DNA of 64,000 bases, taken from assembly GCA_949288185.1 (NCBI GenBank), contig CASEIZ010000050.1, forward strand, positions 35,020 through 99,019. The letters are read 5' to 3'. The notes under the pieces are model-generated. The model saw nothing but the letters and a program-made list of their open reading frames with translations. It searched no databases and was not told the DNA's origin. The stretch comes from an uncultured Eubacteriales bacterium. GTDB lineage: Bacteria > Bacillota > Clostridia > TANB77 > CAG-508. Made by a program: the position numbers and the translations under genes. This document shows positions 5,539 through 57,071 of the stretch, in pieces (position 1 is the stretch's first letter; each line of letters begins with the position of its first letter).

Positions 5539-5557
5539 AATTAAAAGTTTGTAAATT

Positions 5558-5703
5558 AGACGAGTCTCTATTTTTATTATTTTTCACACCTTGTGTGTCG
5601 CAACCAACAAATAAAATGAATCGTAGGTTGCTCCAATCGCACTCACTGCGTTCGTTTGGTCGCTTACGCGGTGTCTCAAAATAATAAGAATAGAGACTTG
5701 TCT
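5558..5703. repeat. palindromic intergenic element carrying an A-type G/C-rich core (5621-5672)
   Basis: The 26-nt arms AGACGAGTCTCTATTTTTATTATTTT and AAAATAATAAGAATAGAGACTTGTCT match at 24 of 26 positions. The core is homologous, in inverse orientation, to 56924-56976. Confidence 0.75.
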
Positions 5704-5796
5704 GATTGATAATAATATTGAATTATTTGTATATAAAATAGAACAATACAATTGAAAAAAACGCATATAAAAGGTATAATAGAATGGGTGAAATAA

Positions 5797-33722: not shown

Positions 33723-35714
33723 ATGAATGAAATCAAATTATCAGGCAAGAAAAAAATGAAAAATATTTTATTTATATCTTTTTTAATCATCATATGTTTA
33801 ATTGTAAGACTAGGATATATACAATTAATACAAGGAAAGGAATTAGCAAAATTAGCCTATGAACAACAAACATTAGACAGAAAGATTAATCCCAAAAGAG
33901 GAACCATTTATGATGCTACAGGAAAAAATATATTAGCCGTTAGTAGTACAGTAGAAACAGTTACAGTTAATCCGAGCAATATTTCAGCTGAAAACAAAGA
34001 AAAAGTTGCCAAAGCTTTGTCAGATATATTTGAACTGGATTATGAAACCGTATTAAAAAAAGTAAAGAAAAGAAGTTCTATTGAAACCATTGTGAAAAAA
34101 GTCGAAAAGGAAAAAACAGATGAATTAAGAAAATGGATAGAAGAAAATAATATGACAAGTGGAATTAATATTGATGAAGATACAAAAAGATATTATCCAT
34201 ATAACAATTTTGCATCACAAATTATAGGATTTTGTGGAAGTGATAATCAAGGATTAGATGGAATAGAAGCAAAATATGAAGAAGAACTAAAAGGAGAGCA
34301 AGGAGCAATTCAAAAACATACAGATGCCAAAGGAGGAGAGATTGGAGAAGAAGGAGAAAATTACGTGCCTGCTATAGATGGAAATGATTTAGTATTAACA
34401 ATTGATTTAACCATTCAATCCATAGTGGAAAAATATTTAGAAGAAGCTTGTATTGACAATGTTTGTACAGATGGTGGAAGTGTTATTGTCATGAATCCAC
34501 AAAATGGAGATATTTTAGCTATGGCCAATTATCCAAGCTATAACTTAAATGAGCCATATGAACCATATACAGAAGAATTAAAAACAACATGGGATTCTCT
34601 AGAACAAGCAGAAAAAACGACGTATTTACAAGCGGTTTGGAGAAATAAAGCCATTGCAGACACCTATGAACCAGGTTCTGTATTTAAGTTAATTACAGCT
34701 TCTGCTGCATTGGAAGAAGGCATCACAGACACAGATAATGAAGGAGAATTTTCTTGTACAGGTGGAATTGAAGTAGCAGGTGTTAGAATAAAATGTTGGA
34801 GATATTATAGACCACATGGTTCAGAGAGTTTAAGGCAAGGATTAATGAATTCATGTAATCCAGTTTTTATTGGATTAGGACAAAAAATAGGAGTAACAAA
34901 ATATTATGAATATTTGGAAAAATTTAAGTTATTACAAACAACAGGAATTGATTTACCAGGAGAAGCTGGAAGTATATTTTTAGCTAAAGAAAAAGCAGGA
35001 CCAGTCGAATTAGCAACTATCAGTTTTGGTCAAAGATTTGAAATTACGCCAATTCAATTAGCAACAGCAGTATCTAGCATTGCTAATGGAGGAACCAGTA
35101 TAAAACCAAGAGTGGTAAAACAAATCATTGATAGTGAAACAAAAGAAGTAACAGACATTCCAGTAGAAAAGGGAGATATGGTTATTTCAAAAGAAACCTC
35201 TGAAAAAGTATTAAGTATGATGGAAAGTGTTGTATCAGAAGGTACTGGCAAAAATGCAAAAGTGGCAGGATATAGAATTGGAGGAAAAACAGGAACCTCA
35301 GAAGATGGTGTTAATACAAATAAATATGTAACATCTTTTTGTGGAGTCGCACCAATTGATAATCCACAAGTAGTGGTATTGGTTACTTTATATAATCCAA
35401 CAGGTGAAGGGGGACACCAAGGAGGAGGGGTGGCAGCACCAGTGGGCGGACAGATATTTAGTGAAATATTACCATATTTGGAAGTAAATAAAGAAATATT
35501 AGAAGAAGATGAGGAAGAAATCATTAATCAAATACAGGTACCAGATATTATGGGGAAAACATTAGAAGAAGCAAAGCAGATTTTAAAAGAGAATAATTTA
35601 GAAATGTATTTAGAAAATGAAGAAGTTGATATGGAAAATACTTATGTAAAAAATCAAATTCCAAGTAGTGGGATAACCGTTAATGAACAAAGTAAAGTGG
35701 TGATAGAATATTAA
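33723..35714 (+). CDS. class B penicillin-binding protein (FtsI/PBP2B/SpoVD family), one PASTA domain
   Basis: N-terminal TM helix, the SVFK, SCN and KTGTS motifs, and C-terminal PASTA (IQVPDIMGKTLEEAKQIL...). Confidence 0.9.
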   Translation: MNEIKLSGKKKMKNILFISFLIIICLIVRLGYIQLIQGKELAKLAYEQQTLDRKINPKRGTIYDATGKNILAVSSTVETVTVNPSNISAENKEKVAKALSDIFELDYETVLKKVKKRSSIETIVKKVEKEKTDELRKWIEENNMTSGINIDEDTKRYYPYNNFASQIIGFCGSDNQGLDGIEAKYEEELKGEQGAIQKHTDAKGGEIGEEGENYVPAIDGNDLVLTIDLTIQSIVEKYLEEACIDNVCTDGGSVIVMNPQNGDILAMANYPSYNLNEPYEPYTEELKTTWDSLEQAEKTTYLQAVWRNKAIADTYEPGSVFKLITASAALEEGITDTDNEGEFSCTGGIEVAGVRIKCWRYYRPHGSESLRQGLMNSCNPVFIGLGQKIGVTKYYEYLEKFKLLQTTGIDLPGEAGSIFLAKEKAGPVELATISFGQRFEITPIQLATAVSSIANGGTSIKPRVVKQIIDSETKEVTDIPVEKGDMVISKETSEKVLSMMESVVSEGTGKNAKVAGYRIGGKTGTSEDGVNTNKYVTSFCGVAPIDNPQVVVLVTLYNPTGEGGHQGGGVAAPVGGQIFSEILPYLEVNKEILEEDEEEIINQIQVPDIMGKTLEEAKQILKENNLEMYLENEEVDMENTYVKNQIPSSGITVNEQSKVVIEY

Positions 35715-35824
35715 AAAAGTCATAAAAACTCTATACAAAAAATAATTTTCGTTATATAATATGAGAGATTAAATGGAATAATTTGCATATAATTAAGTAT
35801 TCATAATCGAAAGGATTGAAAAAA

Positions 35825-39535: not shown

Positions 39536-39738
39536 ATGTCCAATTGGGGACGTTTCTGTTTGGGGCATTTTTATGTAAAGTTATGTTCCTATATGAACTT
39601 TAAATTTTAGAAACAGTATTCCAAATTCAAAATTACAATTATACAAATTTTTGAAGATATAAAACTTACACAAAATGTTTCCAATAAGTATAAATTTACA
39701 TAAAAATGTCCCAAACAGAAACGTCCCCAATTGGACAT
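39536..39738. repeat. 203-bp palindromic element with 44-nt near-perfect arms between ftsW and murG
   Basis: ATGTCCAATTGGGGACGTTTCTGTTTGGGGCATTTTTATGTAAA pairs with TTTACATAAAAATGTCCCAAACAGAAACGTCCCCAATTGGACAT, with one indel. The interior is AT-rich. Confidence 0.85.
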
Positions 39739-43175: not shown

Positions 43176-43195
43176 CTTTTAAATCCATATTATTC

Positions 43196-43421
43196 AAGTT
43201 TCGGTTTTTTTAAGTTGAGGGCGGGGATGTTTATATTTTTTATGATTTCCTCGGTTTGCTCCATAGATGATAACTTCTAAATTTTCAATAAACGAGCCTC
43301 TCGCTGTTCGCGCTTCCTCATTTATTGAAAATTAAGAATTTATACATCTATTCCACGGCACATTCGTCAATGCATAAAAAATATAAACATCCCCGCCCTC
43401 AACTTGAAAAAACCGAAACTT
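43196..43421. repeat. 226-bp palindromic element (B/D family) with a conserved asymmetric G/C-rich core at 43290-43323
   Basis: Outer arms AAGTTTCGGTTTTTTTAAGTTGAGGGCGGGGATGTTTATATTTTTT and its complement. The core AAACGAGCCTCTCGCTGTTCGCGCTTCCTCATTT is the reverse complement of the 56738-56771 core, with about 3 substitutions. Confidence 0.85.
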
Positions 43422-43495
43422 AAGATATTTTCTGTTGAAAAATCAATTGTTTTAGTATATAATAATAAAGGTAAAGAAAAGGAGCGAACGCATTG

Positions 43496-45702: not shown

Positions 45703-46351
45703 ATGGAAACATTAATCGTATCAGGTGGAGAAATAAATATAGAACAATTAAAAACATATTGTGAAAAGCATATACGGTCAGAATATTATTGTATGTGATA
45801 GAGGATTAGAAGCATTATATCAACTAAAAATTATACCAAACCATGTAGTAGGAGATTTTGATTCCGTTTCTTCTGAAGTTCTAGAATTTTATAAAAAGCA
45901 AACTCAAATTATTTTTCATACATATAATGCTGAAAAAGATAATACAGATACAGATATTGCTTTAAAGTTAGCAACTAGGTTAAAAAGCTCTAAGATTACA
46001 ATTCTAGGAGCATTAGGAAAAAGGATGGATCATGCAATTGCCAATATTCATATTTTAAAAGATGCTTTAGAAGCAGAAATACCTTGTCAAATTCTGGATG
46101 AATATAATCGAATTTATCTAATAAATAAAGAAACGACTTTAGAGAAGGAAAAAGTTTATGGAAAATATGTATCTTTAATTCCTTTGACTAGCACAGTGGA
46201 AGGATTAACTTTAACAGGTTTTAAATATCCTTTAAATCATTATACTTTACCGATAGGAACCAGTTTAGGTATTAGTAATGAAATCATAACAGATACAGCA
46301 CATATTGAGATGAAAAAAGGCATTTTGATTGTGATAGAAAGCAGAGATTAA
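45703..46351 (+). CDS. thiN: thiamine pyrophosphokinase, interrupted by a frameshift near 45764-45775
   Basis: The conserved N-terminus METLIVSGGEI (RBS AAAAGGAG) is in frame 1 and stops at 45796-45798. The remainder (QNIIVCDRGLE...VGDFDS) is in frame 2. Confidence 0.75.
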
Positions 46352-46391
46352 AAAAAGGGAATTTTGAGTCCGTCCCCAAAATCCCTTTTTT
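46351..46391. terminator. bidirectional terminator with a GGGGACG-type loop between thiN and the oxidoreductase operon
   Basis: AAAAAAGGGAATTTTG pairs with CCAAAATCCCTTTTTT. The loop region contains CGTCCCC. Confidence 0.7.
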
Positions 46392-46392
46392 A

Positions 46393-47349
46393 TTATTTAT
46401 TTTTATTTGTGACTTCTTCTAAGTCTAATAATTCTTGCCATCTTTCATCAACAATTCTTTGGAAATCTTCTATCATCCACTCATTACCAGGTTTAAACAT
46501 ATGTCTAAATCTTTTTTGTGGTTTTAAGAATTCTTCAATTGGTAATTTTTTAGCTGGTTTATATGAAATATGATATACACCATTAACAACTTCATATAAT
46601 GGCCAATAGCATGTTTCAACAGCAAGTTTATTGATTTTCATTAAATCTTCTGTTGGATATCCCCATCCTCTAGGACATGGTGATAATACATTTAAAAATG
46701 CTGGTCCTTCTGTATAAATGGCTTTTTCAGCTTTTTCATATAAATCTTTGAAATTCATATAGGCAATGGTTTGCGCAACATAAGGAATATGATGTCCAAC
46801 CATGATTTTACTTAAATCTTTTCTACATTGTGTTTTTCCAGGAATAACGGTTCCAGCAGGTGAGGTAGTGGTATCTGCATATTTAGGAGTTGCAGAAGAA
46901 CGTTGAATACCTGTATTCATGTATGCACCATTATCATAACATACATATACCATATCATGTCCTCTTTCCATAGCACCTGATAAAGATTGTAAACCGATAT
47001 CATATGTTCCACCATCTCCACCAAAGGCGATGAATTTTGTATCTCCATCAGCTGGTAATTTTCCTTGTTTTTTCATAGAAACATAAGCTGCTTCTGCTCC
47101 GGCAAGTGTAGCACCTGCACATTCAAAAGCTGTATGTATAAATGAATCTGTCCAAGCAGTATATGGATAGATAAAAGTAGAAACTTCCATACATCCAGTG
47201 GCATTGGCAACAACTGCATGGTCTTCTGGTTTTAAAGCTCTCATAATATGTCTTGCAACAGGAGGAGCTCCACAACCAGCACACATTCTGTGTCCAGCAG
47301 TAAATCTTGAAGGTTTATTCGCAACGATTTCTTTTACATTATAAGGCAT
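46393..47349 (-). CDS. 2-oxoacid:ferredoxin oxidoreductase beta subunit (TPP-binding; Por/Vor type)
   Basis: CAGCG and GGDGGTYDIG TPP motifs. The start overlaps the upstream stop (TAATG). Confidence 0.85.
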   Translation of the reverse strand: MPYNVKEIVANKPSRFTAGHRMCAGCGAPPVARHIMRALKPEDHAVVANATGCMEVSTFIYPYTAWTDSFIHTAFECAGATLAGAEAAYVSMKKQGKLPADGDTKFIAFGGDGGTYDIGLQSLSGAMERGHDMVYVCYDNGAYMNTGIQRSSATPKYADTTTSPAGTVIPGKTQCRKDLSKIMVGHHIPYVAQTIAYMNFKDLYEKAEKAIYTEGPAFLNVLSPCPRGWGYPTEDLMKINKLAVETCYWPLYEVVNGVYHISYKPAKKLPIEEFLKPQKRFRHMFKPGNEWMIEDFQRIVDERWQELLDLEEVTNKNK

Positions 47350-48542
47350 TATTTGTCACCTTCCTTTCTTAATCCTAAATAACGATAAGGATTATCTATT
47401 TTTCCAGTTTTTACGATTTCTGATAAATCTGTATATACACTTTCGATGTCATCAGCTTTTGTATCTCTACCACCAATACCATATACATAGTTAACGGCAG
47501 GTACGTGAATATTGTTTACATACATAGCAGATGTAACATCTTCAAACAAAGCACCACCAGCAGCATTTAAAGAATCTGCTTTATCTAATACAGCAATGGC
47601 TTTTAGATGTGATAATGCTTTTGCGATTTCTTCAACAGGGAATGGTCTAAATACACGAAGTTTTAATAAACCTGCTTTTACACCTTGTTCTCTTAATTTG
47701 TCAACAACAAATTTGGTTGTACCAGCTGTTGAGTTCATACAAACAATAGCAATTTCAGCATCATCTAATTTATATTCTTCAAAAAGACTATATTTTCTAC
47801 CAGTCATTTTTTCAAAATCTTTTGCTACATCTAAAATCACTTGTTTTGCATTTTTCATAGCTTCTGCTTGCCCAGCTTTATGTTCAAATAGATAAGCTTG
47901 TAAATCTAATGGACCAACAGCAATTGGCTCATTTTTATTTAATAAATAATGTTCTGGTTTATATGTTCCAACAAATTCTTTGACTTTATCATCTTCAACT
48001 AGTTCTATATTTTCAATAGAATGAGAAGTAATAAATCCATCTTGACATACCATTAATGGAAGCATAACATTTTTATTTTCTGCAATTTTATGTGCCATTA
48101 AAAGGTTATCATATGCTTCTTGATTATTTTCTGAAAATAACATAATCCAACCAGCATCTCTAACACCCATAGCATCTGAATGGTCATTATGAATGTTTAA
48201 AGGTCCTGATACAGCTCTGTTTACTAAAGACATAACAATAGGTAAACGTAAACTAGAAGCAATATAGATCATTTCCCACATTAAAGATAAACCATTAGCA
48301 GATGTAGCTGTCATAGCTCTAGCACCTGCTGCTTCTGCACCAATACAAGCACTCATAGCACTGTGTTCACTTTCAACAGCAACAAATTCTGTATCGACAA
48401 GACCATTATCAACAAAAGTTGAAAAATATTGTGGGATTTCTGTTGAAGGTGTAATAGGGAAGGCTGCGACAACATCTGGATTAATTTGTTTCATAGCAGT
48501 TGCTGCTGCTTCATTACCACTTAATCTTTCTCTAATACTCAT
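47349..48542 (-). CDS. 2-oxoacid:ferredoxin oxidoreductase alpha subunit
   Basis: GNEAAATAMKQINPDVVAAFPITPST. The start could also be the GTG at 48554. Confidence 0.85.
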   Translation of the reverse strand: MSIRERLSGNEAAATAMKQINPDVVAAFPITPSTEIPQYFSTFVDNGLVDTEFVAVESEHSAMSACIGAEAAGARAMTATSANGLSLMWEMIYIASSLRLPIVMSLVNRAVSGPLNIHNDHSDAMGVRDAGWIMLFSENNQEAYDNLLMAHKIAENKNVMLPLMVCQDGFITSHSIENIELVEDDKVKEFVGTYKPEHYLLNKNEPIAVGPLDLQAYLFEHKAGQAEAMKNAKQVILDVAKDFEKMTGRKYSLFEEYKLDDAEIAIVCMNSTAGTTKFVVDKLREQGVKAGLLKLRVFRPFPVEEIAKALSHLKAIAVLDKADSLNAAGGALFEDVTSAMYVNNIHVPAVNYVYGIGGRDTKADDIESVYTDLSEIVKTGKIDNPYRYLGLRKEGDK

Positions 48543-48543
48543 A

Positions 48544-48846
48544 TTATTCAACACCTTCCTCTCTCATTTCAATAGCACCGAAAGGGCATACTTTGGCACA
48601 TACACCACAACCTTTACAGTAATCATAATTGAAATCTTTTCTTTTTAAATCTTCTTTTCCTACTGGAATGGCATCTTCTGGACAAACAGGGAAGCATAAA
48701 CCACATTGTTTGCATTTATCAGATAGAAATACAGGGTAAGAACTTCTCCAGTCACCTGTTTTAAATTCTCTTGCATTTCCAGCAGTATAAATATCTCCAC
48801 CAGGAGTTAATTTCTCCATAGGTGTGTTTGCATTTATATCTGTCAT
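48544..48846 (-). CDS. 2-oxoacid:ferredoxin oxidoreductase delta subunit (2x[4Fe-4S])
   Basis: CKQCGLCFPVCP and CKGCGVCAKVCP. SD spacing favours the ATG at 48846 over 48858. Confidence 0.8.
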   Translation of the reverse strand: MTDINANTPMEKLTPGGDIYTAGNAREFKTGDWRSSYPVFLSDKCKQCGLCFPVCPEDAIPVGKEDLKRKDFNYDYCKGCGVCAKVCPFGAIEMREEGVE

Positions 48847-48882
48847 ATTTAACCTCATTCCTTTCTTAAAATTCCTTATTGT

Positions 48883-48937
48883 ATAGAAAAAATCATCTTT
48901 TATGCATCGAAATCTTTGATTTCGTGATGCATGCTTT
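48883..48937. repeat. composite of two short repeat modules between the gamma and delta subunit genes
   Basis: ATAGAAAAAATCATCTTTT (48883-48901) is identical to the reverse complement of 52075-52093. 48909-48937 is the inverse copy of 38328-38356. Confidence 0.8.
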
Positions 48938-48939
48938 CC

Positions 48940-49521
48940 TTATTGAATTTTCTTAACTTCTTTTAAAGCCATTTCCAATGCTTTCATATTTCCTTCTATA
49001 ACCTCAGGTTTTTTAGCAAATTTATGTTTAAAAGAACCTTTCATATCTTCTAATAATTCATCATCAGTCATAATTTTACTTACTTTTACAATTGCTGCTA
49101 GCATAGGTGTATTTGGGAAGTATTTTCCTAAAGCCTCCTCTGAAATTTTTCTAGCGTCAATTGTATAAACTTCTCCAGAATATCCTTTTAACGCTTTTTT
49201 TAGATATTCAGCAGATTTTGTTGTGTTAATAACAATAGCTCCTGTGTCTTTTAAACCAGAAGTTACATCAACTGATTCTAAAAGCGTGTCATCGACAACT
49301 ACCACATAATCAGGTTCATAAATATTACTATGAATTGTGATAGGTGTCTCACTAATTCTGTTGTATGCAGTGATAGGGGCACCCATTCTTTCAGGACCAT
49401 ATTCAGGAAATCCTTGAATATACTTACCAGTATTAAAAGCTGCATCAGCTAATAATAAAGAAGCTGTTTTGGCACCTTGTCCACCTCTACCATGCCATCT
49501 AATTTCTATCATGTTATCCAT
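48940..49521 (-). CDS. 2-oxoacid:ferredoxin oxidoreductase gamma subunit
   Basis: IRWHGRGGQGAKTAS, with RBS AAGGAGG 9 nt upstream. Confidence 0.85.
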   Translation of the reverse strand: MDNMIEIRWHGRGGQGAKTASLLLADAAFNTGKYIQGFPEYGPERMGAPITAYNRISETPITIHSNIYEPDYVVVVDDTLLESVDVTSGLKDTGAIVINTTKSAEYLKKALKGYSGEVYTIDARKISEEALGKYFPNTPMLAAIVKVSKIMTDDELLEDMKGSFKHKFAKKPEVIEGNMKALEMALKEVKKIQ

Positions 49522-49610
49522 TCGTAATTGCCTCCTTTTTATTAAAATTTTACGACTTTAGTATATGCCTAAATACTTTTAATGTCAATACATTTGCTGA
49601 AAATTGAAAC

Positions 49611-50000
49611 GTTGGGGACGTGCCAAATCGTTCAAAAATTGAACAAAAGGGACAGACCATAACCTGACTGAGGTAGATCATCTATTATATAAAGTCACTC
49701 ACGATTTTGTATAAGCTAAATTTTCATAGAAATAAGAACCTGACCCGACATAGCAATCAAAGATTGCAGTCGGGTACCCCAGAACCTTGTTGTCTAAGAC
49801 AATAACACAATAAAAATGTGAGCCGCTTTCATTAAAAATGAACATCCCTCACATTTTTATTGGTTCTTTCTAAATTCAAATTTAGATACGCAAAATCGAT
49901 TCTTTCCTTTATATAATAGATGCTCCACCTCAGTCAGGTTATGTCGGGTTATGGTCTGTCCCTTTTGTTCAATTTTTGAACGATTTGGCACGTCCCCAAC
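49611..50000. repeat. 390-bp nested palindromic element filling most of a divergent intergenic region
   Basis: ~85-nt arms run from GTTGGGGACGTGCCAAATCGTTCAAAAATTGAACAAAAGGGACAGACCATAACC... to ...GGTTATGGTCTGTCCCTTTTGTTCAATTTTTGAACGATTTGGCACGTCCCCAAC. They differ by one 10-nt indel. Several inner hairpins are present. Confidence 0.9.
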
Positions 50001-53995: not shown

Positions 53996-56530
53996 TTAAT
54001 GAGCATCAGTCAAAGTTGGTTTTAGTGTTACATTGATAATGGTTCCTTCTTGTACAAGTTCACCTGCTGTGTAGTCTTGGATTGTAACGATTCCTGAACC
54101 AGTCACACTAATGTTTAAGTTTTTCGCTTTTAAAGCATTAGTTGCCTGTGATAAATTCATATTAGATAAATCAGGAACTTCAACAGAGGTAGCAACTGTA
54201 TCACCTTCGCCATATAACATGATAATAGAATTAGCAGCTAACTTAGCACCTGGTTTTGGATTTTGGTCTGCAACTAATGTTGAATTTGCATCACCAGAAG
54301 AAACAATTTCACAATCAAATCCAGCATCGGTAAGCACTTTTTTTGCTTCAGTAAGTGTTTTATTTCTAACATCAGGAACAGTAATCAAGTTTTCAGAACT
54401 ATTATCTTCTTCTGTTGTATCAGAAGGAACACCTAAATATGGTAATATTTCAGATAACATTTGTGAGACAACAGGAGCGGCAACAGAACCACCTTGATAT
54501 CCATATTGTTTGTTTTGAGGATCATATAAAGTAAGTAAGATGACAACTTGTGTATCTTCAATAGGAGAGATAGCAACAAATGATGAAACATATCCGTCAT
54601 CTACATTTGCTTCTGTAGGTTCAGATGTTCCAGATTTTCCTCCAATAGAATACCCAGAAACTTGAACATTTTGACCGGTACCATGTAACACAACAGATTC
54701 CATCATAGATTTTACTTCTGAAGCTGTTTTTTGAGATAAGACTTGTCTTACTTCAGTAGGCTGTGTTTCGGTAACAGCACCAGTATCTGTGTTAGTGATG
54801 GATTTGATAATATTTGGTTTCATCAAGACACCATCATTTGCAACACAAGAAATAGCGGTTATCATTTGAAGTGGTGTTACTTGGAATCGTTGACCAAATG
54901 CATATGTTGCAAGTTCAACAGGTCCAACTTCATCTAAATCATGGAAAATACTAGTTTGTTCTCCATATAATCCAGAATTTGTTGATTCAAATAATCCAAA
55001 AGCTTGGTAATATTTATATAAAGTAGAAGCCCCAATTCTTTGTGCTAATTGGATAAAAGCAGGGTTGCATGAATTTTCTAAAGCATTTGTCAAGGTTTGA
55101 GAGCCATGAGGATTATAATGTCTCCAACATTTGATTTCTCTGTCTTCAACAATTTGAGAGCCTGAACAGTAGAAATCTCCTGCCTTATTTGGTGTTGTAA
55201 TACCTTCTTCTAAAGCAACACTAGCAGTGATGATTTTAAAGGTAGAACCAGGTTCGTAACTCTCTGAAACAGATTTATTAGACCACATTTTGTATAAAGC
55301 TTCATTCTTTTCTTCAGTAGATAAAGAATCGTAGGTTTGTGCTAGGGTAGAATTTGGTGTATATGGTGAATTTAGATCATAATCTGGATAACAAGCCATT
55401 CCTAAAATATCACCTGTTTGAGGATTCATAACAATGACATTTCCACCATCTTCACATTCATATTTTTCAACAGCTTGTTCTAAGTATTTTTCAATAGTAG
55501 ATTGTACCTTTAAATCAATCGTTAATGTGATATCACTACCATTTTCAGCAGATATATAATTTTCTTCTGCATTTGGAATTTCTTTTTGACTACTATCTTT
55601 TGCACTAACAATTTTACCTGGTGTACCAGTCAAAACTGAATCCCATTTAGATTCAATTCCACTTAATCCTTGATTATCACTTCCACAAAAACCAATGACA
55701 CTAGAAGCAAGTTCACCATAAGGATAATATCTCTTTGTATCTTCATCTATGTTGATACCAACAGATATATCATTTTCATCCATCCAAGCTTCCAATTCAT
55801 CTACTTTATCTTGTTCTACTTTTTTGATAATGGTTTCTACTTGTGATTCACTGTTTACTTTTTCTAATGTTTCATTGTAATCTAGTTCGAATATATCAGA
55901 AAGGCCTTTGGCAACAGTTTCTTTTAAAGTTTTTGTTTCTTCGTCAGTGTCTCCAACAATTCTAGTAGGATTAATGGTTATGGTATCTACCTGTGCACTA
56001 ATGGCTAAAGGATTTCCAGTAGCATCATAGATATTTCCTCTTTTAGGACTAAGAATTTGGTTAATAGCTTGTTGTTGATAGGCCATTTCTGTTAGATAGG
56101 CACCATCAACAAATTGTAAATAGCCAATTCTTACTAAAAGCAAAATAAAAATGATCATAATCACAATAAATGTATTACGTAATTTGGGTGTGTAAATTAG
56201 ATTTTTAGAATCAAATTTACGATTTAAACTAATGACATTTGAATCTTTTTCTTTTTTTATTTTTGCAATGCTTTTGTTTTTTTCATTTTTAATCATTGCC
56301 ATATTCGTATTTTTGGGGTTTGTATTTTTTACTATATTTTTATCTTTTTCCTTGTTAGTTTTTTTAGAATTTTTTTCTTTATTTTTTTTCATATTTATAG
56401 GTGTTTTATCATTTTTTATATCATCTTTTGTTGATACACCGATATAAATATTTTTGTATTGCATGTCGTTTTTATTTTTCTTATTTTTCTTATTTTTCTT
56501 ATTTTTCTTATTTTTTTTATTTGTATCCAT
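53996..56530 (-). CDS. class B penicillin-binding protein (SpoVD/PBP2B family) with two PASTA domains and a K/N-rich N-terminal extension
   Basis: STFK, SCN and KSGTS motifs plus two C-terminal PASTA units. RBS AAGAGG favours the ATG at 56530 (MDTNKKNKKN...). Confidence 0.9.
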   Translation of the reverse strand: MDTNKKNKKNKKNKKNKKNKNDMQYKNIYIGVSTKDDIKNDKTPINMKKNKEKNSKKTNKEKDKNIVKNTNPKNTNMAMIKNEKNKSIAKIKKEKDSNVISLNRKFDSKNLIYTPKLRNTFIVIMIIFILLLVRIGYLQFVDGAYLTEMAYQQQAINQILSPKRGNIYDATGNPLAISAQVDTITINPTRIVGDTDEETKTLKETVAKGLSDIFELDYNETLEKVNSESQVETIIKKVEQDKVDELEAWMDENDISVGINIDEDTKRYYPYGELASSVIGFCGSDNQGLSGIESKWDSVLTGTPGKIVSAKDSSQKEIPNAEENYISAENGSDITLTIDLKVQSTIEKYLEQAVEKYECEDGGNVIVMNPQTGDILGMACYPDYDLNSPYTPNSTLAQTYDSLSTEEKNEALYKMWSNKSVSESYEPGSTFKIITASVALEEGITTPNKAGDFYCSGSQIVEDREIKCWRHYNPHGSQTLTNALENSCNPAFIQLAQRIGASTLYKYYQAFGLFESTNSGLYGEQTSIFHDLDEVGPVELATYAFGQRFQVTPLQMITAISCVANDGVLMKPNIIKSITNTDTGAVTETQPTEVRQVLSQKTASEVKSMMESVVLHGTGQNVQVSGYSIGGKSGTSEPTEANVDDGYVSSFVAISPIEDTQVVILLTLYDPQNKQYGYQGGSVAAPVVSQMLSEILPYLGVPSDTTEEDNSSENLITVPDVRNKTLTEAKKVLTDAGFDCEIVSSGDANSTLVADQNPKPGAKLAANSIIMLYGEGDTVATSVEVPDLSNMNLSQATNALKAKNLNISVTGSGIVTIQDYTAGELVQEGTIINVTLKPTLTDAH

Positions 56531-56635
56531 AGCTTCGCCTCTTTTGTTAAAAATTTGCAATTCTATTCTATCTTAAAAACATATAAAAAGCAATAAAGAC
56601 ACAGAAATTTCATAATAAAATACATAGTTATCGTT

Positions 56636-56871
56636 ACAGTTCACAGCTCAATAAAGGCCAGGGAAAGGTTATGTTATTCTAGATTGAATGGATTTCGAAT
56701 GTGATTGAAGTACTTGTAGCCTTTCTTAATTTAAAACAAATGAGGAAGCGGGAATAGCGAGAGGCTCGTTTGTTTTAGATTTAGAAAGGCTAAAGTACGC
56801 ATTGAGCCGAGAAATTCATGAAATATAGAATAACATAACCTTTCCCTGGCCTTTATTGAGCTGTGAATTGT
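56636..56871. repeat. 236-bp palindromic element (B/D family) with core at 56738-56771
   Basis: Arms ACAGTTCACAGCTCAATAAAGGCCAGGGAAAGGTTATGTTATTCTA and its complement. The core is AAATGAGGAAGCGGGAATAGCGAGAGGCTCGTTT. Confidence 0.85.
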
Positions 56872-56923
56872 AGCTAGTTATTATTACGTTTGATCCTTTA
56901 AGTATATCTTTATTATGTTGAAA

Positions 56924-56976
56924 CATCGCGTAAGCGACCAGATAAGCTGAAAGCGAGTGCGATTGGGGTAACCTAC
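56924..56976. repeat. second copy of the A-type G/C-rich core
   Basis: CATCGCGTAAGCGACCAGATAAGCTGAAAGCGAGTGCGATTGGGGTAACCTAC compared with the reverse complement of 5621-5672, CACCGCGTAAGCGACCAAACGAACGCAGTGAGTGCGATTGGAGCAACCTACG. Confidence 0.8.
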
Positions 56977-57071
56977 AAAAGAAATATAATTGTAAAAATT
57001 ATGTTAAATGTTGAAAAACAGATGGATTTACAATATAATAGATACTGTAAAAAATGAAAGGAAATAAAAAG

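What the first reader, a model, noticed from the sequence alone, without database searches (positions are those of the whole stretch)
43196..43421. B/D family of long palindromes: conserved asymmetric core, divergent but self-complementary arms
The elements at 43196-43421 and 56636-56871 lie in opposite orientation and share a ~34-nt G/C-rich core: AAATGAGGAAGCG(C/G)GAA(C/T)AGCGAGAGGCTCGTTT. They also share flanking blocks (CGAATGTG, TTCTTAATTT, ATTTAGAA).

The long arms differ in sequence between the copies, yet each copy keeps its own two arms complementary. Compare ATAGATG.ATAA.TTCT.AATTTTCAATAAA in one with GTACTT.TAGCCTTTCT.AAT.TAAAACAAA in the other.

That pattern points to one of two things:
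- Selection on an RNA or DNA secondary structure (covariation).
- Arm homogenisation by hairpin-templated repair.

The non-palindromic core gives the element a polarity.
Basis: seen in the sequence. Interest (0 to 1): 0.66.

Follow-up and report, generated by a model that had tools for sequence, protein, structure and literature searches.

The report
Flipping MITEs with a conserved hairpin core
The two palindromes are copies of a small non-autonomous transposon of chicken-gut Clostridia whose arms are kept complementary by DNA recombination, while its roughly 117-base centre is a strongly conserved, strand-specific hairpin module that is also found in other gut bacteria and matches no catalogued RNA family.

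Summary
B (about 43193-43424, core on the - strand) and D (56633-56874, core on the + strand) are related hairpin-forming elements of about 230-242 bp.

**What they are.** They are MITEs. D has 14-bp terminal inverted repeats (GTTACAGTTCACAG) and an 8-bp target duplication (TAGTTATC/TAGTTATT). These ends resemble those of an IS66-family (ISBst12-group) insertion sequence. I found 64 further copies in about 15 uncultured Clostridia genomes, plus an empty site.

**Arms.** The outer arms evolve as fast as the flanks yet stay complementary. The cause is DNA recombination between the arms, not RNA selection:
- Orthologues show concerted transversions and indels.
- Arm mismatches show no G·T bias.
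- The central segment is inverted relative to the flanks in 7 of about 21 orthologous groups.

**Centre.** The central module (CGAATGTG…CCGAG, about 117 nt) behaves differently:
- It is 97% identical between orthologues, against 86-88% for arms and flanks.
- Its stems covary.
- G·T pairs far outnumber A·C on one strand.
- Its apical domain never flips relative to its internal loop (0 of 149).
- It sits in at least three MITE backbones across chicken, human and other JGI/ENA metagenome assemblies.
- It has no Rfam match.

**Function.** Its three unpaired blocks resemble the RSB, CS-6 and partner motifs of plasmid ssoA single-strand origins, but in a different order. Its function remains inferred.

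The parts
56633..56874 (+). Element D: complete 242-bp MITE, with the core strand on +
   Evidence: Terminal repeats and length match 17 other copies of 242-247 bp. Folds as one hairpin, -137.6 kcal/mol, z -20.8.
56625..56632 (.). Left target-site duplication of D (TAGTTATC)
   Evidence: Matches 56875-56882 at 7 of 8 positions. 15 of 18 copies with GTTAC/GTAAC ends have at least 6 of 8, and 8 are perfect.
56875..56882 (.). Right target-site duplication of D (TAGTTATT)
   Evidence: sequence read
56633..56646 (+). Left terminal inverted repeat of D, GTTACAGTTCACAG
   Evidence: Conserved at the ends of D-type copies in several genomes. Resembles the ISDge4 (IS66 family, ISBst12 group) ends GTAACTGCTCAGCA, which come with an 8-bp repeat (PMC12898284).
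56861..56874 (-). Right terminal inverted repeat of D (CTGTGAATTGTAGC on +)
56696..56811 (+). Conserved central module of D, CGAATGTG...CCGAG (116 nt): internal loop, inner stem and apical loop
   Evidence: Alignment of 59 copies. Covariation. Orthologue identity 97.8%. Same limits in every arm type and in metagenome copies.
56742..56768 (+). Apical core of D, GAGGAAGCGGGAATAGCGAGAGGCTCG; contains TAGCGA
   Evidence: 64 exact matches to the 21-nt pattern within this core in low-GC Clostridia genomes
43193..43424 (-). Element B: MITE of the B-type subfamily, with the core strand on -. Ends TTCAAGTTTCGG / CCGAAACTTAAG. Target duplication decayed (candidate ATATTATT / ATATTTTC, 6 of 8).
   Evidence: Orthologue L035 at the same lepB-holB site. 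B-type copy L071 has the duplication AAAGTCTA/AATGTCTA.
43250..43366 (-). Conserved central module of B (117 nt, read on the - strand)
   Evidence: 120 of 121 positions identical to the orthologue L035, against 92% in arms and 93% in flanks.
43293..43319 (-). Apical core of B, GAGGAAGCGCGAACAGCGAGAGGCTCG
5589..5610 (.). Empty target site: CCTTGTGT is present once here. Relatives L003, L009, L058 and L074 carry a family member at this spot, flanked by a duplicated 7-8 bp.
   Evidence: Synteny; sequences.

Best explanation

SHOWN
- The elements insert with an 8-bp target duplication.
- Their terminal repeats (GTTACAATTCACAG, GTAACTATTCAGTGG) resemble those of an IS66-family, ISBst12-group insertion sequence.
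- The long outer arms drift about as fast as neutral flanking DNA but stay complementary because the two arms recombine with each other. This recombination also inverts whatever lies between the arms, so the asymmetric centre is found in either orientation at orthologous loci.
- The central module of about 117 nt (CGAATGTG...CCGAG) is a separate, conserved unit. It has a fixed internal loop, a covarying inner stem and an apical domain. It shows a marked excess of G.T over A.C pairs on one strand, and the orientation of its apical domain relative to its internal loop never varies.
- The same module occupies the centre of at least three unrelated MITE backbones, in chicken-gut and human-gut metagenomes and in many further JGI and ENA metagenome contigs of unchecked origin.

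INFERRED
- The module acts as a folded single strand.
- My leading guess (about 0.35) is a hairpin read in single-stranded DNA by RNA polymerase, as in the ssoA single-strand origins of rolling-circle plasmids. Its three unpaired blocks resemble the ssoA RSB, CS-6 and 3'-partner motifs.
- A structured RNA is nearly as likely (about 0.3).
For: MITE
- 18 copies of 242-247 bp have conserved ends and 8-bp direct repeats.
- There is an empty site in the window.
- There are 3-10 exact-core copies per genome in about 15 genomes, all intergenic.
- ISDge4 has the ends GTAACTGCTCAGCA and an 8-bp repeat. IS66 repeats start GTAA and make 8-bp repeats.

Arm recombination
- 7 of about 21 orthologous groups have the centre flipped relative to the flanks.
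- In L017/L047, flanks 97-98% identical over 600 bp and outer arms that align almost without mismatch enclose an inverted segment of about 118 bp.
- L003, L058 and L074 show nested flips.
- Orthologous arms differ by 60 concerted substitutions (32 transversions, 28 transitions) and 7 concerted indels.
- Arm mismatches are unbiased: G.T 32, A.C 27.

Conserved module
- Orthologue identity is 97.8% for the inner part, 88.3% for arms and 86.3% for flanks.
- 97% of cells are paired, 27 of 44 pairs change on both sides, and the covariation score is 0.446 against 0.152 in shuffles (0 of 500 reach it) and 0.03-0.10 when slid.
- G.T 151 against A.C 13.
- The apical domain is never flipped relative to the internal loop, 149 to 0.
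- The module appears in other backbones and with other apical domains.
- The non-palindromic apical hairpins also covary (pair 67-75 G-C 22 / A-U 12; pair 63-80 U-A 31 / C-G 4).

ssoA likeness
- RSB is TTATGCCGAGAAAATTT and CS-6 is TAGCGT. Their roles are given.
- pT181, pE194 and pC194 read TTTATGCCGAGAAAA...TAGCG(A/T)...GGAAATTGGAATAAAG.
- The module reads, on one strand, ..GTGATTGGAGT / GTGGAATAGA ... ATAGCGAGAGG ... TTGAGCCGAGAAATT.
Against: - No autonomous partner insertion sequence was found in the 64 loci.
- B-type ends do not start with GTAA, and their target duplications are decayed.
- Conservation of the module could partly reflect exchange between copies rather than selection in place.
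- ssoA reading: the RSB-like and partner-like blocks sit on the opposite arms from ssoA, so the RSB-like block reads away from the loop. Inversions cannot produce this arrangement from ssoA.
- The elements are chromosomal, not on a rolling-circle replicon.
- There is no BLAST similarity to any plasmid.
- No conserved -10 follows the TTGAGC block.
- Core orientation is not tied to the direction of replication: B and D sit on opposite strands of one replichore.
- Any RNA reading: no Rfam match.
- The core strand is antisense to neighbouring tandem genes in 19 of 28 groups.
- In metatranscriptome contigs the module is no more enriched over flanks than in DNA runs.
Confidence: 0.7

Rival explanations
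1. The central module is a structured non-coding RNA (a new class) carried as cargo by MITEs. It is made from its own promoter or by read-through. The conserved loops, rich in tandem G.A, would bind a protein or make tertiary contacts.
For: Covariation in the inner stem and in non-palindromic apical hairpins. G.U pairs far outnumber A.C on one strand. A near-fixed U.G pair lies under the apical loop. Hairpin insertions of variable length occur in the apical loop. Module sequence is present in metatranscriptome contigs.
Against: No promoter is conserved across subfamilies. The module flips relative to neighbouring genes. The favoured strand is antisense to tandem neighbours in 19 of 28 groups. 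Depth over the module relative to flanks is similar in RNA and DNA runs; only contigs were available, with no strand information. No Rfam family matches.
Confidence: 0.3
2. The whole ~230-nt hairpin is an RNA gene, and arm complementarity is maintained by selection on RNA pairing.
For: Very stable folds. In D the core strand is 22 kcal/mol more stable than its complement.
Against: Outer arms are 92-100% Watson-Crick over 49-62 nt, far more than an RNA needs. Arm mismatches have no G.U bias. Compensated changes are as often transversions as transitions, and they include indels. The arms carry transposon ends and target duplications. The arms stay fixed while the centre inverts.
Confidence: 0.05
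3. Each element is a programmed invertible switch (an inverton). A recombinase flips the centre to turn a promoter or terminator toward or away from a neighbouring gene.
For: Flips occur between loci whose flanks are 97-98% identical. Elements favour regions upstream of genes: 13 divergent against 1 convergent group. A small hairpin followed by a T-run exists only on the core strand. D carries TTGAGC-18-TAGAAT facing ksgA.
Against: The repeats at which flipping occurs differ in sequence between subfamilies, so a single site-specific recombinase is unlikely. No -10 is conserved after TTGAGC, where scores match shuffled sequence. Ordinary recombination between 30-60-bp perfect inverted repeats is sufficient. 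Coexistence of both orientations within one population could not be tested because only contigs were available.
Confidence: 0.1
4. A plain selfish MITE with no functional core. The centre looks conserved because copies exchange sequence with each other, or were recently replaced by active copies. The ssoA-like motifs are coincidence.
For: MITE hallmarks. Many other MITE families are in the same genomes. The ssoA motif order does not match.
Against: Module variants follow the locus or subfamily, not the genome, so exchange within a genome is weak. Module identity between species is 97%, against 86-88% around it. Strand-biased G.T pairs and the never-flipped apical domain are not expected without constraint. 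The module is retained across different backbones and hosts.
Confidence: 0.2

Closest known systems
Bacterial MITEs that fold as long hairpins (Correia/NEMIS, ERIC, RUP, QMITE2 of Coxiella)
   Same: Non-autonomous and 100-250 bp long. They have terminal inverted repeats and short target duplications, sit in AT-rich intergenic sites and form very stable stem-loops (general features in PMC10969869). D meets all of these.
   Different: Here the centre, not the ends, is the best-conserved part. It is shared by backbones with unrelated ends, shows strand-specific pairing, and inverts relative to the flanks. None of this is a described hallmark of those families (my knowledge; not found in the review).
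IS66 family, ISBst12 group (for example ISDge4)
   Same: Ends begin GTAAC/GTTAC. ISDge4 GTAACTGCTCAGCA compares with GTAACTATTCAGTG (T3-type copies) and GTTACAATTCACAG (D-type). Both make an 8-bp direct repeat.
   Different: No transposase gene and no full-length partner were seen. B-type copies have different ends (TTYAAGTTTCRG).
ssoA-type single-strand origins of rolling-circle plasmids (pT181 palA, pE194, pC194)
   Same: An imperfect hairpin of about 120-160 nt with poorly conserved stems. Conserved unpaired blocks sit in a loop-distal internal loop (GCCGAGAAA), in the terminal loop (TAGCGA) and opposite the internal loop (ATTGGA / TGGAATA). All are on one strand and the function is strand-specific (searches compared).
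   Different: The RSB-like and partner-like blocks are on swapped arms. The context is a chromosomal MITE, not a rolling-circle replicon. There is no alignable similarity outside the motifs. Function was not tested.
Invertible DNA switches and flip-flop inversion between inverted repeats
   Same: The segment between inverted repeats is found in both orientations at the same locus.
   Different: The repeats are the element's own long arms and differ between subfamilies. No recombinase gene is nearby and no orientation-dependent promoter is conserved.

Membership tests
MITE (non-autonomous DDE-transposon derivative) | Terminal inverted repeats conserved among copies | tested here: met
   GTTACAATTCACAG / GTAACTATTCAGTGG are at both ends of 18 copies. 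B-type copies have TTYAAGTTTCRG.
MITE (non-autonomous DDE-transposon derivative) | Target-site duplication of fixed length | tested here: met
   8 bp; at least 6 of 8 in 15 of 18 copies and perfect in 8. D has TAGTTATC/TAGTTATT.
MITE (non-autonomous DDE-transposon derivative) | Presence/absence polymorphism at orthologous sites | tested here: met
   Window 5589-5610 is unoccupied where L003, L009, L058 and L074 carry a copy.
MITE (non-autonomous DDE-transposon derivative) | Small, multicopy, with no coding capacity | tested here: met
   About 230-247 bp for the window copies and the 18 measured copies. 3-10 exact-core copies per genome, all intergenic.
MITE (non-autonomous DDE-transposon derivative) | A cognate autonomous IS with the same ends in the same genomes | tested here: not met
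   No such ends were found away from the elements in 64 loci plus the window. Whole genomes could not be searched.
IS66 family / ISBst12 group derivative | Ends starting GTAA and an 8-bp direct repeat | tested here: inconclusive
   T3-type copies start GTAAC and D-type copies start GTTAC. T3 matches the ISDge4 end at 10 of 14 positions, and the repeat is 8 bp. B-type ends do not fit.
IS66 family / ISBst12 group derivative | Mobilised by a TnpC-type transposase | not testable with these tools
ssoA-type single-strand origin | Long imperfect hairpin formed by one strand | tested here: met
   DNA fold of the D module, z -7.2. pT181 ssoA, z -9.2. G.T excess on one strand.
ssoA-type single-strand origin | RSB (TTATGCCGAGAAAATTT) in the loop-distal part, on the 5' arm, reading toward the loop | tested here: not met
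   The RSB-like TTGAGCCGAGAAATT is in the loop-distal internal loop, but on the 3' arm and reading away from the loop.
ssoA-type single-strand origin | CS-6 (TAGCGT/A) in the terminal loop | tested here: met
   D and most copies have ATAGCGAGAGG in the apical loop. B has CAGCGA.
ssoA-type single-strand origin | Sits on a replicon that passes through single-stranded DNA and supports RNA-polymerase-primed lagging-strand synthesis | not testable with these tools
   The context here is chromosomal. Function needs a plasmid assay.
Any Rfam 15 RNA family | Score at or above the family's gathering threshold | tested here: not met
   No match in the window. Only sub-threshold plant miRNA-precursor hits at the elements. 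Nothing but tRNAs in 14 metagenome loci carrying other module types.
Programmed inverton | Both orientations coexist in one population; a conserved recombinase site; an orientation-dependent promoter | tested here: inconclusive
   Orientation differs between genomes. Coexistence could not be tested because only contigs were available. There is no common repeat sequence and no conserved -10.

The most novel reading that the evidence does not exclude
The ~117-nt module is a new class of strand-specific nucleic-acid element: either a relative of plasmid single-strand origins (an RNA-polymerase-recognised DNA hairpin) or a new structured RNA. It has spread through gut Firmicutes by riding in the centre of several unrelated MITE backbones. 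It is kept under selection at fixed chromosomal sites, and arm recombination flips its orientation.
Probability: 0.35. Interest if true: 0.75.

Novelty: new variant of a known kind. Interest (0 to 1): 0.55.

Why it matters
Read as MITEs, the elements are ordinary, and the arm "covariation" is a DNA-recombination effect. That is a useful caution: covariation tests applied to palindromic repeats give very strong scores even where no RNA selection is involved.

What is not ordinary is the conserved, strand-specific central module:
- It is widespread in chicken-gut and human-gut metagenomes and in many further metagenome contigs whose origin I did not check.
- It is absent from Rfam.
- It is shared by unrelated transposon backbones.
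- It carries the signature motifs of plasmid single-strand origins.

If it is a priming or RNA-polymerase-binding hairpin, single-stranded DNA would have a part in the life of these MITEs or of their hosts. If it is an RNA, it is a new abundant gut RNA class.

The frequent flip-flop inversion also makes these elements natural markers of recombination between short inverted repeats.

Tried and rejected
- **Rfam.** Searched at gathering and permissive thresholds. Only sub-threshold plant miRNA-precursor hits appeared, which are long hairpins.
- **Viral contigs.** The apical core gave no hit. Hits to the two internal-loop patterns were all chance, since nhmmer found no module in them.
- **BLAST against plasmids and phages.** Tried with D and with a beta-type module; nothing found.
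- **Small peptide in the core** (ATG AGG AAG CGG GAA TAG). Rejected because the start codon and the stop are not conserved among copies.
- **Outward sigma-A promoter with TTGAGC as the -35.** Rejected because -10 scores equal those of shuffled sequence.
- **Insertion of the module into pre-existing unrelated palindromes as the source of arm diversity.** Mostly rejected. Arms next to the module are homologous across types (TTGAATAAATGA-like), and whole units carry target duplications. One clear nested case exists: L008, inside a TTGGGGACG-type MITE.
- **Autonomous IS.** A search by terminal repeats in the loci found none.
- **Both orientations, or a discrete RNA, in public runs.** Only assembled contigs were available. 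They break inside the palindrome and carry no strand information.
- **Deriving the module's motif order from ssoA by inversions.** Not possible (reasoning).

Full report
**1. Observation**

The window is about 28% G+C, with positive GC skew nearly throughout.

- B: arms 43196-43244 and 43373-43421, 49 nt, 98% complementary.
- D: arms 56635-56696 and 56811-56872, 62 nt, 92% complementary.
- Each has a second, inner pair of arms.

The core GAGGAAGCG(C/G)GAA(C/T)AGCGAGAGGCTCG occurs exactly twice, on opposite strands, and never in shuffled sequence. All four strands fold into one long hairpin, with z-scores of -17 to -21. For D, the strand carrying GAGGAAGCG is 22 kcal/mol more stable than its complement.

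Neighbouring genes are housekeeping genes:
- B lies between lepB (signal peptidase) and holB.
- D lies between a divergently transcribed penicillin-binding protein gene and ksgA/rsmA.

**2. The family**

A scan of one genome per species with GGAAGCGNGAANAGCGAGAGG gave 76 loci. Of these, 64 are true copies in about 15 uncultured Clostridia, Eubacteriales or Bacillota genomes of 26-31% G+C, with 3-10 copies per genome. The other 12 are chance hits in high-GC genomes. Public runs holding the window are mostly chicken-gut metagenomes. All copies are intergenic.

**3. They are MITEs**

Eighteen copies of 242-247 bp end in GTTACAATTCACAG (D-type) or GTAACTATTCAGTGG (here called T3-type). They are flanked by 8-bp direct repeats, perfect in 8 copies and at least 6 of 8 in 15.

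D is 56633-56874, with the duplication TAGTTATC/TAGTTATT. At window 5589-5610 the target CCTTGTGT is single, whereas the syntenic loci L003, L009, L058 and L074 carry a copy there, flanked by a duplicated 7-8 bp. That makes the window an empty site.

The ends resemble those reported for ISDge4 (IS66 family, ISBst12 group): GTGACTACTCAGCA / GTAACTGCTCAGCA with an 8-bp repeat (PMC12898284). IS66 repeats starting GTAA with 8-bp repeats are also on record (PMC11946415).

B-type copies have different ends (TTYAAGTTTCRG) and mostly decayed duplications; L071 has AAAGTCTA/AATGTCTA. No autonomous partner was seen.

**4. Why the arms differ between copies yet stay complementary**

Flank BLAST defines about 21 orthologous groups. 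In 7 of them the core is inverted relative to the flanks. In L017/L047 the flanks (97-98% identical over 600 bp) and the outer arms align almost without mismatch, and only about 118 bp between the perfect arm segments ...TTTTTCATAAAT / ATTTATGAAAAA... is inverted. L025/L072 show the same. L003, L058 and L074 show nested flips of two different asymmetric bubbles. So the arms recombine with each other.

Other evidence agrees:
- Orthologous arms differ by 60 concerted substitutions (32 transversions, 28 transitions) and 7 concerted indels. L006/L026 alone have 17 and 4.
- The window's B differs from its orthologue L035 by an extra G in one arm, matched by an extra C in the other.
- Arm mismatches are G.T 32, A.C 27 and transversion type 102, so there is no RNA-like bias.
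- Arms are 88.3% identical between orthologues and flanks 86.3%.

The arm pattern is therefore concerted evolution of a DNA palindrome.

**5. The centre is different**

The module runs from CGAATGTG to CCGAG: D 56696-56811, and B 43250-43366 on the - strand.

- It is 97.8% identical between orthologues, or 97.3% after removing the 22 positions fixed by the search.
- On 59 distinct copies, 97% of cells pair and 27 of 44 pairs change on both sides. The covariation score is 0.446, against 0.152 in shuffles (0 of 500 reach it) and 0.03-0.10 for slid partners.
- On the core strand, G.T cells number 151 and A.C cells 13. Without the two near-fixed U.G pairs the counts are 62 and 13.
- Module variants follow locus and subfamily, not genome. 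Exchange between copies is therefore not the main cause of conservation.

**6. A wider superfamily**

nhmmer found diverged copies with altered apical loops. One of them sits in the central loop of a TTGGGGACG-type MITE.

These include contigs named as human-gut metagenome assemblies and many JGI and ENA contigs whose source I did not check. The loci carry the same internal loop with several apical domains:
- the alpha type seen here, including versions with an inserted hairpin;
- a commoner beta type (…GTTCACGTCGAGCGAAGCGAGGACTAAGTGG…);
- some other, less common apical types.

They sit in arms ending in GTTAC-type repeats, TTGGGGACGG-type repeats or other sequences.

The beta apical hairpins are not part of the palindrome, yet they covary: pair 67-75 is G-C 22 / A-U 12 and pair 63-80 is U-A 31 / C-G 4. 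The apical domain is never inverted relative to the internal loop, 149 to 0, although the whole module flips freely. None of these types matches Rfam. None occurs in viral contigs or in plasmid and phage records.

**7. What the module might do**

*The ssoA lead.* I recalled this resemblance from memory and then checked it. ssoA single-strand origins are hairpins of about 160 nt. RSB (TTATGCCGAGAAAATTT) lies in the loop-distal stem and binds RNA polymerase. CS-6 (TAGCGT/A) lies in the terminal loop and ends the primer RNA.

pT181, pE194 and pC194 all read 5'-TTTATGCCGAGAAAA…TAGCG(A/T)…GGAAATTGGAATAAAG-3'. On the G.T-rich strand the module reads 5'-…GTGATTGGAGT (B: GTGGAATAGA)…ATAGCGAGAGG…TTGAGCCGAGAAATT-3'. 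All three ssoA motifs therefore recur in the module's three conserved unpaired blocks.

However, the RSB-like and partner-like blocks are on swapped arms, and no series of inversions yields that order. I therefore do not file the module as an ssoA. I hold "works like an RNA-polymerase-read single-strand hairpin" at about 0.35.

*The RNA reading.* I hold a structured RNA at about 0.3. Points against it:
- No promoter is conserved.
- The favoured strand is antisense to tandem neighbours in 19 of 28 groups.
- RNA-run contigs show no enrichment beyond that seen in DNA runs.

*A programmed switch.* This is not supported, because the flipping repeats differ between subfamilies and no orientation-dependent signal is conserved. 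Coexistence of both orientations within one population could not be tested.

*Insertion preference.* Elements strongly favour divergent over convergent intergenic regions, 13 groups to 1.

**8. Verdict**

The elements are MITEs. The striking arm pattern is DNA-level concerted evolution with flip-flop inversion. The conserved core belongs to a widespread, uncatalogued, strand-specific hairpin module whose function is still open.

Noticed in passing
window 39536-39738 and 49611-50000: A second MITE-like palindrome family with ends (A/G)TTGGGGACGT; many more copies are in the related loci. In other genomes this backbone carries the same central module at its centre: L008 3131-3592, and many metagenome loci with TTTTTGGGGACGGACTCAAAAAACA ends. 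The two window copies lack the module.
   Followed up: partly
window 5585-5690 (- strand) and 56885-56990 (+ strand, just right of D): A further repeated block of about 75 nt, TTATTATKTTGARACAYCGCGTAAGCGACCA…GAGTGCGATTGGRGYAACCTAC, about 80% identical between the two copies. The first lies inside a 35-nt-armed palindrome (5549-5712). There is no Rfam hit over the second copy. It contains GCGATTGGAG, reminiscent of the module's GTGATTGGAG block. Nature unknown.
   Followed up: partly
window 56470-56520: A 9-nt tandem repeat (TTTTCTTAT, about 5 units) at the 5' end of the penicillin-binding protein gene on the - strand, encoding a K/N-rich repeat. Metagenome contigs show variants lacking 9 or 18 nt here, so the repeat number varies between strains.
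   Followed up: partly
L025 3279-7064 compared with window 35712-35747: Relatives L025 and L072 carry about 3.8 kb absent from the window at this intergenic site, bounded on one side by a T3-type copy of the family. L004 has a D-like copy at the same gene end. This looks like a hot spot for insertions.
   Followed up: no
L068 about 4720 onward; L002, L007, L032, L055 left arms: Damaged family members. In L068 the right arm is interrupted after TTTTAGAT by another palindromic element (GACAAATCT…AGATTTGTC). In four loci the left arm is replaced by a short perfect palindrome (ATATATTAGAAAGTCA GTA TGACTTTTCTAATATAT) followed by unrelated sequence.
   Followed up: no
window 56610-57049: One chicken-gut metagenome contig (run X4) joins 56610 to 57049. 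It skips D and the whole region up to ksgA, so a related strain has a different or much shorter intergenic region. It is not a precise excision of D.
   Followed up: no
window 46000-50000 and 54000-56000: The only stretches with negative GC skew and higher G+C (33-34%) are the - strand genes: a four-gene 2-oxoacid:ferredoxin oxidoreductase cluster and the penicillin-binding protein gene. These are ordinary genes on the lagging strand, not foreign DNA.
   Followed up: partly
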